The translations under genes were made by a program, and so were the position numbers. Positions 14,621 through 16,240 of a DNA stretch of 64,000 nucleotides are shown one piece after another. Positions within the stretch are counted from its first letter, which is position 1. Each line of letters starts with the position of its first letter. The notes under the pieces were generated by a model, which did not search any database, had not been told where the DNA came from, and saw only the letters and a list, made by a program, of their open reading frames with translations. Source of the DNA: Eledone cirrhosa (Eukaryota); NCBI GenBank assembly GCA_964016885.1, contig OZ024749.1, positions 45,074,001 through 45,138,000 of the forward strand. The letters run 5' to 3'.

Positions 14621-15076
14621 ACAACTAATTAAATTAATTTAACAGTCAGATAAAATTTATTGCAGAAAAATGTGTTACTTTGATTTAGATACATACAATG
14701 TTCATACAAATATTTTAGCGGCATTCATGAACACAAAGTAATGAAGTGGTTTGACAAATAACTAAAATGTTAAATGGCAATATATACTTGCAGCTTGCAA
14801 CAGCAACAGATACAATGTACAAACATTTCAACAGTTCAAAATTGAACAACAAAACTGAATAGAGAGAGGAGGGGGAGAAATGAAGTGTGACAGAAATGAA
14901 ACAGGTTAAAATATAGTCTAGTTAGATGAGAAACAAAACGAGGATGTAGCTTATGGAACACCCAAATGATTTAGATGTCGACCTTAAGCAATAACATTAA
15001 GAAAGACATGAACATTATTTTGTATTGAAAATTTTGAAAGTAGGTTTATAAGAATGAATTTAGAGTAGATTTCGTA

Positions 15077-15167
15077 GCTGTCTCCGTGGTCTAGTGGTAG
15101 GTACTAGAGACGGTGGAGATCCTGGTCCTGGGTTCAGTCCGAGTCTAGAGGTACAAGTAAACTTTTT
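15077..15167 (+). ncRNA. tRNA-His-like Pol III unit (pseudo-tRNA)
   Basis: A box tggtctagtgg, GTG at the anticodon position, B-box-like ggttcagtccgagtc, T5 terminator; stems are imperfect, so not a canonical tRNA. Confidence 0.5.
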
Positions 15168-15199
15168 CAGTTTTTAATTTACATCCCATAGAAAAACTC

Positions 15200-15296
15200 A
15201 AAAAGGTCTACCGGGAACCCTACTCCCGTCCAGGATCGAACTTCAGACCACGATCACCACGGTCTATGATCCTTCCAACTAGGCCACTGAGACAGC
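15200..15296 (-). ncRNA. tRNA-like Pol III unit, convergent partner
   Basis: Minus strand gctgtctcagtggcctagttggaagg...ccgtggtg...gttcgatcc...ccttttt. Confidence 0.5.
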
Positions 15297-15552
15297 TTCA
15301 AAAGTGTAATGAAAATTAATAATTATAAACCTACTTTCAAAATCAAAGTTTAAAAGATGTGGTGTCGTTCATGGCTTTCCTAGAGCTATTAGTCATATTT
15401 AGGGTCGACTTGTCGATCTTCTGGCTCTTTGATAACAACCTTATTATTCCTATATGTTTGACTGTTGAGTTAACTTAATTTGATTATTTTAACAAACAAA
15501 TATCATATATATATAATGCCAACATTGTAAGTTTAAATATGACATGCAAAAA

Positions 15553-15618
<66 letters not shown>

Positions 15619-15656
15619 TAAGGTATGCCCAAATCCTACTTGATTAATATATCACT

Positions 15657-16240
15657 GAGAGAGGGGGGAATGGGGTGTGACAGAAATGAAACATGGATTA
15701 CAGGTTAAAATATAGTCTAGTTAGATGAGAAACTAAACGAGGATGTAGCTTATGGAACACCCACATGATATAGATGTCGACCTTAAATAGGAGCAATAAC
15801 ATTAAGAAAGACATGAACATTATTTTATATGAACATTTTGAAAGTAGACTTATAAGAATGAATTTTCAGCATATTTCCGTCGCTGTCTCCGTGGCCTAGC
15901 GGTAGGTACTAGAGACGGTGGAGATCCTGGTCTTGAGCTCAATCTTGATCAAGATGTACATGTAATCTATTTCAGTTTTTATTTTACATCCCATAGGAAA
16001 AAAAAATACTGAACATGTTTACCGGGAACCCTACTCCCGACCAGGATCGAACTTCATACCACGATCACTACCGTCTACGATTCCTCCAACTAAGCCACTG
16101 CGACAGCTATAAACGAATAGTGAAAATTAATAATTATAAACCTACTTTCAAAATCAAAGTTTAAAAGATGTGGTGTCTTTCATGGCTTTCCGAGAGCTAT
16201 TATTATATAGTTAGGGTCGACTTGTCAAACTTCTGGCTCT
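15657..16240. repeat. Copy 2 of the duplicated twin-tRNA-like palindromic unit
   Basis: Same order of motifs; palindrome 15776-16221; tRNA-like heads start at 15882 (+) and 16107 (-). Confidence 0.9.

What the first reader, a model, noticed from the sequence alone, without database searches (positions are those of the whole stretch)
14977..15409. Twin convergent tRNA-like Pol III units inside an old palindrome
Seen: two diverged tRNA-like units face each other (15077 +, 15296 -). Each has A and B boxes, GTG at the anticodon-like position and its own T-run terminators before the centre. Each also has an identical upstream 20-mer, ttttgaaagtaggtttataa, placing TATAA near -30, and outer gtcgacc motifs. 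The promoter-like 20-mer is better conserved between the arms than the RNA bodies are. The + unit resembles tRNA-His (tagtggt..gtact...gtgg...ggttc..tccgagtc), judged from memory. Inference: either a bidirectional small-RNA cassette or a palindromic mobile element built from two Pol III genes. It does not fit the usual SINE or MITE layout.
Basis: partly seen in the sequence, partly recalled or inferred. Interest (0 to 1): 0.75.

Follow-up and report, generated by a model that had tools for sequence, protein, structure and literature searches.

The report
DNA transposon carrying twin RNA genes
The two facing units are a pair of small genes, likely descended from an asparagine tRNA gene, that sit inside a cut-and-paste DNA transposon spread to many hundreds of sites; stray promoter-less copies suggest their RNAs were once made, but the spread copies appear to decay like passengers and no function is shown.

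Summary
The palindrome is real, but it is cargo of a larger element. It is the inner module of a non-autonomous hAT-type DNA transposon (14-bp terminal repeats, 8-bp target duplications). The window holds two end-less tandem copies. The genome has 395 cassettes with both promoter 16-mers exact, so roughly 1,700 in all. The units likely come from tRNA-Asn, not His: one real Asn gene shares their 10-nt leader. Relatives lie outside this transposon with the same promoter block, terminator and a stub of the partner, so the facing layout likely predates capture. Four promoter-less solo copies of the cassette's own types stop at or before the terminator or join other retro-element ends, which points to past Pol III transcription. 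After insertion the copies mutate evenly, and no RNA fold is supported by covariation. This scan noted the gene family earlier on other DNA of this genome, including that some copies ride in a DNA transposon. Verdict: an unusual cargo-carrying MITE, probably with passenger genes; interest 0.45.

The parts
14861..15501 (+). Copy 1 of the internal module of the hAT-type element; the element's termini are absent from the window
   Evidence: 84% identical to the interior of full element L043 and continuous with L026's right interior; no terminal repeat in the window at 2 mismatches
14977..14983 (+). Outer gtcgacc motif, left arm; part of the gene's upstream flank, also seen in relatives outside the transposon
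15032..15051 (+). 20-mer upstream block ending in TATAA (15047-15051), unit A
   Evidence: kept in relatives
15074..15167 (+). Unit A: predicted 94-nt Pol III transcript with 6-nt leader, A box, damaged B box and T5; second T-run ends at 15175
   Evidence: solo copies L225 and L229
15176..15191 (.). Centre spacer between the terminators, homologous to the 3' flank of relatives outside the transposon
15200..15299 (-). Unit B: predicted 100-nt Pol III transcript with A box, intact B box and T5; second T-run at 15192-15196
   Evidence: solo copies L223 and L224
15323..15342 (-). 20-mer upstream block ending in TATAA, unit B
15356..15373 (-). 18-mer that is identical between arms in most copies (partly deleted on the A arm here); its distance to TATA is not fixed in relatives, so it is probably not a PSE
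15403..15409 (-). Outer gtcgacc motif, right arm
15515..16240 (+). Copy 2 of the internal module, head-to-tail with copy 1 across an AT-rich junction; contains an expanded (TA)n tract at about 15555-15615
   Evidence: 85% identical to copy 1
15879..15980 (+). Unit A of copy 2; B box and first T-run damaged; 20-mer variant at 15836-15855
   Evidence: read
15998..16110 (-). Unit B of copy 2; first T-run damaged; 20-mer exact at 16134-16153
   Evidence: read

Best explanation
The palindrome is the inner module of a non-autonomous hAT-type DNA transposon, and it likely consists of two complete, once-transcribed RNA polymerase III genes, likely derived from a tRNA-Asn gene, that the transposon likely captured as a ready-made tail-to-tail pair and likely spread as passengers. 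Steps: (1) Inferred: an Asn gene with its TATA flank and pre-tRNA leader founded a family of ~100-nt mini-genes. (2) Inferred from shared flanks: one gene was duplicated in inverted orientation before the lineages split. (3) Shown: the pair lies between the element's ends, inside (TA)n tracts, at 395 or more sites. (4) Inferred: a hAT transposase moved it in trans. (5) Inferred from solo copies: Pol III read each unit from 28 nt behind TATAA to its own T-run, and the RNA kept its leader and trailer, so it was not matured like a tRNA. (6) Shown: rare mutations fall evenly across the inserted copies. The window's two copies are end-less tandem remnants, likely made by unequal exchange in the (TA)n tracts.
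For: Carrier: terminal repeat CAGTGGCGGACTGG at both ends. In 20 two-ended, cassette-bearing elements the flanks match at 7 or 8 of 8 bases in 13; mean match is 0.75 at length 8 against 0.40 for mismatched pairs; the other lengths from 2 to 12 stay within about 0.1 of control. 29 of 40 cassettes taken along C1-C2 have a terminal segment on the same strand within 2 kb. 17 of 32 elements picked by their 5' end carry a near-whole cassette. An intact 4,465-bp hAT with an 883-aa DUF4371/hAT-dimer ORF shares the first 10 terminal bases. Origin: Asn gene L171 has the same 10-nt leader and the same 9 bases starting at TATAA as unit B; the search pattern did not ask for the leader. Outside relatives: units in 9 regions of 10-30 kb without this element's ends; 10 of 11 also match the cassette centre (0 of 500 shuffles as high). 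Transcription: of 13 promoter-less relatives, 8 begin at the predicted start, 5 are clipped by up to about 10 nt or unclear, and none extends upstream. Solo copies of cassette type: 1 of 1 hit and 3 of 6 hits; none has other cassette sequence within 1.5 kb. L224 ends in the second T-run. L225 is fused to a repeat tail found 23 times in 1.38 Mb. L223 groups with B units at 100/99. Neutral decay: rare variants 0.035, 0.037, 0.034 and 0.034 per site in A, B, left and right flank (57 copies).
Against: No RNA reads were seen, so transcription rests on inferred retrocopies. The four cassette-type solos were found by patterns that demand a junction at the start, so only their 3' ends and missing flanks are independent evidence. 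A non-transposon source gene of A or B type could exist unseen. By body alignment alone tRNA-Phe scores slightly above Asn (z 4.2 against 3.5 for A), and His, Arg, Tyr and Cys genes were not fetched. The direct autonomous parent was not found (0 of 30 short and 0 of 20 long DUF4371 loci match). The outside relatives lie in another repeated module, so 'host gene' is not proven. 7 of 20 two-ended elements have a poor target-duplication match and 11 of 40 cassettes have no terminal segment nearby. There is a weak shortfall of changes in the 20-mer (0.63 of expected, p 0.025, 17 unselected copies) and B box (0.73, p 0.027; 0.63, p 0.12), uncorrected for 13 regions.
Confidence: 0.7

Rival explanations
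1. The pair helps the transposon: Pol III/TFIIIC loading on two facing genes would keep the element open or shield it from silencing, or the RNAs would act as decoys, so cassette-bearing source copies out-transposed the others.
For: About half of the 5'-end-selected elements carry the cassette (17 of 32). Spacing is kept. Common variant columns number 2 of 123 in promoter-type parts against 18 of 415 elsewhere. Shared variants are higher in the RNA bodies (0.05-0.06) than in flanks (0.02), as if source copies were transcribed or free to change in the body. Cassette-type solos exist.
Against: 2 of 123 against 18 of 415 is not significant (about p 0.1, hand calculation). Cassette-less elements also spread. 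Only 17 of 57 A units and 12 of 57 B units pass a strict promoter test, both in 2. GC-rich bodies inflate shared variants by repeated C>T and G>A changes, and no strand asymmetry was seen.
Confidence: 0.12
2. The RNAs are functional host small RNAs (like rodent 4.5SI or primate snaR), and the transposon raised their gene dose.
For: The architecture matches such genes (TATA-like box near -30, A and B boxes, about 95-100 nt; PMC10137851, passages). The promoter block is kept across diverged lineages. A 5' hairpin is possible in 84% of cells.
Against: RNAalifold finds only 4 pairs at -0.74 kcal/mol for 29 relatives. The 5' hairpin has no pair changed on both sides and the whole model does no better than shuffles (306 of 500 as high). 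Single-unit fold z-scores are -0.84 to +0.92. Bodies change faster than flanks among shared variants.
Confidence: 0.1
3. The unit is a simple SINE, and the palindrome came from two SINE insertions or a fold-back inside a MITE; the shared blocks come from arm-to-arm conversion.
For: Solo retroposed copies exist. At sites where the arms differ, 241 of 572 variants equal the partner's base against 133 expected. Read-through RNA would fold back strongly (z -6.8).
Against: A SINE insertion would not carry about 130 bp of upstream flank, yet both arms and the outside relatives do. A and B are separate clades at 100/99, so conversion has not merged them. The 20-mer is kept in unpaired relatives too. 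The excess can also be ancestral alleles kept in older subfamilies.
Confidence: 0.08

Closest known systems
MER6/MER6A MITE carrying a V-SINE fragment (Luchetti et al. 2019, PMC6887750; abstract and section 2.4 read)
   Same: A non-autonomous DNA transposon spread a piece of a Pol III-type element through a genome as cargo.
   Different: MER6 is Tc1/Mariner and carries one SINE body and tail without the tRNA head. Here a hAT-type element carries two whole units with upstream TATA flank, boxes and terminators, tail-to-tail, with signs of transcription.
Rodent 4.5SI and 4.5SH RNA genes (PMC10137851; passages)
   Same: 94-98-nt Pol III genes with A and B boxes plus a TATA-like box at -31/-24; 4.5SI is tRNA-derived; 4.5SH genes lie in tandem repeats.
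   Different: Their RNAs are detected and abundant; they are not described as DNA-transposon cargo in the passages read. No RNA is shown here, and I made no sequence comparison with them.
Primate snaR family (PMC3045588; passages)
   Same: Pol III mini-genes spread both by retroposition and by duplication of a larger DNA segment.
   Different: Alu/7SL-derived, about 30 genes, spread by segmental duplication rather than by a transposase; expression and a protein partner are known.
TRIMp3 elements Cassandra, Helenus, Ajax (PMC10886601; passages)
   Same: Mobile elements that hold tRNA- or 5S-derived Pol III promoters in two copies.
   Different: LTR retroelements with direct repeats and 5-bp duplications, where the promoter is thought to make the transposition RNA. 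A cut-and-paste element needs no such RNA, and here the units are inverted and self-terminating.
Twin SINE of Culex pipiens (Feschotte et al. 2001; title seen only in the reference list of PMC3272025; layout recalled)
   Same: Two tRNA-related units in one repeat.
   Different: Recalled as a head-to-tail retroposon made from one dimeric transcript; here the units face each other, keep upstream flanks and move as DNA.

Membership tests
hAT superfamily, non-autonomous element (carrier) | Short terminal inverted repeats (5-27 bp; PMC4316626 passages) | tested here: met
   14-bp repeat at both ends of family members; absent from the window's truncated copies
hAT superfamily, non-autonomous element (carrier) | 8-bp target-site duplication | tested here: met
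   13 of 20 two-ended elements match at 7 or 8 of 8; peak only at length 8
hAT superfamily, non-autonomous element (carrier) | Autonomous partner with matching ends | tested here: inconclusive
   L282 hAT shares the first 10 terminal bases only; no parent among 30 short and 20 long DUF4371 loci
hAT superfamily, non-autonomous element (carrier) | No coding capacity, dispersed high copy number | tested here: met
   0.6-1.8 kb without nested inserts; no transposase-like ORF recognised by eye among ORFs of 150 aa or more in 20 stretches of 9.5 kb; 395 exact-pattern cassettes, control 0
Functional tRNA gene (His or Asn) | Cloverleaf recognised by tRNA finders | tested here: not met
   ARAGORN 0 in the window; relaxed runs give changing isotypes; no Rfam tRNA hit
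Functional tRNA gene (His or Asn) | Mature ends (leader and trailer removed) | tested here: not met
   Solo copies keep the 6-nt leader and run to the T-tract; indirect
Type-2 Pol III gene with upstream TATA-like box (4.5SI-like) | A box, B box, T-run and TATA-like box near -30 at fixed spacing | tested here: met
   at 27-29 nt in 14 of 19 lineage rows
Type-2 Pol III gene with upstream TATA-like box (4.5SI-like) | RNA detected; Pol III dependence | not testable with these tools
   No reads could be laid; only indirect support from solo copies
Type-3 Pol III gene (U6-like) | Upstream element shared with U6 genes | tested here: not met
   The motif at about -78 to -58 of 9 U6 loci viewed is not seen in the arms (by eye)
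tRNA-derived SINE | Copies begin at the transcription start, lack upstream flank and spread by retroposition | tested here: not met
   Not met for the cassette, which keeps its flanks and lies inside a DNA transposon; met only by the few solo copies
Vault RNA | Rfam RF00006 match and 5'-3' end pairing | tested here: not met
   No vault hit; the 5' end pairs with positions 34-41 in most predicted folds
Two-hairpin RNA family of earlier scan notes | Conserved two-hairpin fold supported by covariation | tested here: not met
   In my 29 sequences; the earlier notes may concern other subfamilies

The most novel reading that the evidence does not exclude
A cut-and-paste transposon keeps two facing Pol III genes because they help it spread, as a chromatin shield or as decoy RNAs against silencing. 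That would be a DNA transposon with its own small-RNA genes, scattering a thousand or more Pol III/TFIIIC sites through an animal genome.
Probability: 0.12. Interest if true: 0.8.

Novelty: new variant of a known kind. Interest (0 to 1): 0.45.

Why it matters
SINE-type copying loses a gene's upstream promoter; copying as DNA keeps it. This element is a route by which whole Pol III genes, with TATA flank and terminator, were spread to about 1,700 sites (range about 800-5,800 from 4 of 17). Even as passengers they would seed many potential Pol III/TFIIIC sites and are a source of new SINE-like heads, as the solo copies fused to other repeat ends suggest. The family offers a natural test of whether Pol III cargo changes a transposon's success, because cassette-bearing and cassette-less versions coexist. 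It also warns annotators that such tRNA-like calls in this genome are repeat cargo.

Tried and rejected
RNA evidence: the look-up of sequencing runs listed no RNA holder, so no reads were laid. Viral origin (VA/EBER-like pair): one 20-base pattern found 0 matches in viral contigs. TA (2-bp) duplication and Tc1/mariner: rejected by the length scan. U6-type upstream element: not seen. Vault RNA and tRNA: no Rfam hit; one search was swamped by microsatellite hits, and 60 of its 210 rows were not shown. The MIR841 hit only reflects the palindrome. Isotype by body alignment: not decisive. Two-hairpin and remnant-cloverleaf models: no covariation; searches had the T-arm helix shifted by one column, one search is the corrected two-hairpin run, and the acceptor helix (89% paired, 1 of 5 pairs changed on both sides) is unaffected by the shift. 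Transcription-linked strand asymmetry: none. Arm-to-arm conversion: inconclusive. Autonomous parent: not found. One search used wrong coordinates and is not used. One solo copy (C10_22037373) slipped into the 19-row lineage alignment; it lowers the 20-mer score rather than raising it. The 16 module units were sorted by a loose match to the 20-mer, which biases that score upward somewhat. L019 was dropped as a duplicate of L018. Neighbouring genes: none evident from stop-to-stop ORFs in 4000-28000 (read by eye, not searched). Literature: 10 searches showed no listing that describes this element or a DNA transposon carrying a facing Pol III pair; repeat databases and the supplements of PMC13282606 were not seen and may hold it as an unnamed consensus.

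Full report
Observation. The inverted arms are real: 144 of 200 columns match, far above 500 shuffles. The 20-mer is identical in both arms and the bodies match at 65 of 94 columns. A second copy of the whole cassette follows about 805 bp downstream at 85% identity. No tRNA finder or Rfam model recognises the units.

The cassette is a dispersed repeat. A search of the own genome gave 2,651 first-look candidates, and the 39 best other copies were 86-89% identical. A pattern demanding both promoter 16-mers, facing each other 260-290 bases apart, matched 395 sites; the reversed control matched none. Four of 17 copies chosen without regard to these motifs pass the pattern, which gives about 1,700 cassettes with a wide range (about 800-5,800). 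Copies differ from the majority by 6.9% on average (57 copies).

The carrier. Flanks of the copies share a terminal inverted repeat, CAGTGGCGGACTGG. In 20 elements with both ends and a cassette, the flanks match at 7 or 8 of 8 bases in 13 cases; the match peaks only at length 8 (0.75 against 0.40). Short terminal repeats with 8-bp duplications mark hAT elements (PMC4316626, passages). The element has internal (TA)n tracts, many deletion forms, and in its long form a duplicated right end upstream of the cassette, a layout that would fit capture of neighbouring DNA (inference). Of 40 cassettes taken along C1 and C2, 29 have a terminal segment on the same strand within 2 kb and 14 run straight into the right end; 15 have a second whole or partial arm nearby, so the window's tandem pair is typical. 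The window itself has no terminus. I did not find the parent element. An intact 4,465-bp hAT with an 883-aa transposase shares the first 10 terminal bases and carries no such unit; its family is a candidate helper only.

Origin of the units. A pattern built on the units' first bases and a paired acceptor stem returned 205 matches; the 100 listed are all tRNA-Asn-like. One true Asn(GTT) gene, L171, shares the 10-nt leader and the first 9 bases from TATAA with unit B; none of the other 11 leader types seen matches that far. Body alignments alone do not separate Asn from Phe, and no His gene was fetched, so Asn is likely rather than proven.

Relatives outside the transposon. Searching with a divergent solo unit gave 41 matches. 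Sixteen units in those loci keep the 20-mer block and lie singly, in tandem or back-to-back in 9 regions of 10-30 kb that lack this element's ends. Many sit in a module with a degenerate satellite and an antisense reverse-transcriptase fragment. They share the upstream gtcgacc and 18-mer region at a variable distance from TATA, so the 18-mer is probably not a fixed promoter element; the U6 upstream motif is different. Ten of 11 also match the cassette centre, and most run on into the first bases of the partner's tail. The tail-to-tail layout therefore likely predates the hAT element. A and B units form separate clades at 100/99, apart from the module units (bootstrap not fully settled, midpoint root for drawing only). 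Across 19 rows the 20-mer (0.95) and B box (0.96) are better kept than the spacer (0.81), middle (0.80) and tail (0.77) (columns are not independent).

Was the RNA made? No RNA run was listed, so this is indirect. Of 13 promoter-less relatives, 8 begin at the predicted start, 5 are clipped or unclear, and none extends upstream; most end at the T-run or join another repeat. Four solos are of the cassette's own types: L223 and L224 (B), L225 (A) and L229 (A/B mix with a deletion). L224 ends in the second T-run; L225 stops just before the first and is fused to a common repeat tail. These look like retrocopies of primary transcripts that kept the 6-nt leader and the trailer. The other 3 of 6 hits were ordinary cassettes.

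Is it selected? Rare variants are equally frequent in both bodies and both flanks (0.034-0.037). Small deficits in the 20-mer and B box do not survive 13 tests, and the A box shows none. A strict promoter test passes 17 of 57 A and 12 of 57 B units. Shared variants are higher in the bodies, which may reflect faster change in source copies or base composition. No fold is supported: single units fold no better than shuffles, the consensus of 29 relatives has 4 pairs, and the two-hairpin model does not beat shuffles. A read-through transcript would fold back on itself (z -6.8), but that follows from the palindrome.

Comparison. The nearest printed case I found is MER6, a MITE that spread a SINE fragment without its tRNA head (PMC6887750; abstract and section 2.4). 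The genes themselves are built like rodent 4.5SI (PMC10137851, passages) and spread in two ways like snaR (PMC3045588, passages). TRIMp3 elements use such promoters for retrotransposition (PMC10886601, passages). The Octopus vulgaris repeat paper (PMC13282606; first third and passages) does not describe such an element in what I read; its library was not seen. Earlier scan notes describe tRNA-derived mini-gene families elsewhere in this genome, one with an Asn origin, retrocopies and copies inside a DNA transposon. Those notes gave me the lead for the Asn and retrocopy tests; my calls agree with them except on the two-hairpin fold.

Verdict. A real and unusual composite: a non-autonomous hAT-type element whose cargo is a tail-to-tail pair of whole Pol III mini-genes. 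Passenger status is the best reading (0.7). New variant of a known kind; interest 0.45.

Noticed in passing
L282:2722-7186 (G000:C28, about 45.34 Mb): Intact 4,465-bp hAT with an 883-aa ORF (DUF4371 and hAT dimerisation domains) and a perfect 8-bp target duplication; related ends in L280 and L283.
   Followed up: partly
L125, L127-L135: Dispersed tRNA-like family with a shared long upstream flank and varying anticodon (GGC, AGC, GAC, GTC, GGT); may be another DNA-borne Pol III cargo.
   Followed up: no
G000:C19:31.78-31.84 Mb (L033-L042): Tandem array of about 30 U6 genes; in some repeats a SINE-like insert replaces the upstream element but TATA remains.
   Followed up: no
G000:C4:117.36-117.53 Mb (L141-L168): Long tandem array of tRNA-Asn and tRNA-Phe-like genes, period about 1.26 kb.
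   Followed up: no
L208, L209, L217, L219, L220, L221: Repeated module that joins a degenerate satellite, one unit of this family, a stub of its partner and an antisense reverse-transcriptase fragment; its ends and mode of spread are unknown.
   Followed up: partly
L004, L010, L011, L022 (left part of the element): Another MITE ends at the same TCTAGA site inside the element in four independent copies, a possible insertion hotspot.
   Followed up: no
L073: Two long ORFs (445 and 551 aa) that look Helitron-like by eye lie a few kb from a carrier copy.
   Followed up: no
window 3536-3748 and about 20 other sites; window 994-1199 and 5 other sites: Two abundant short repeats fill the window; neither matches the cassette.
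   Followed up: no
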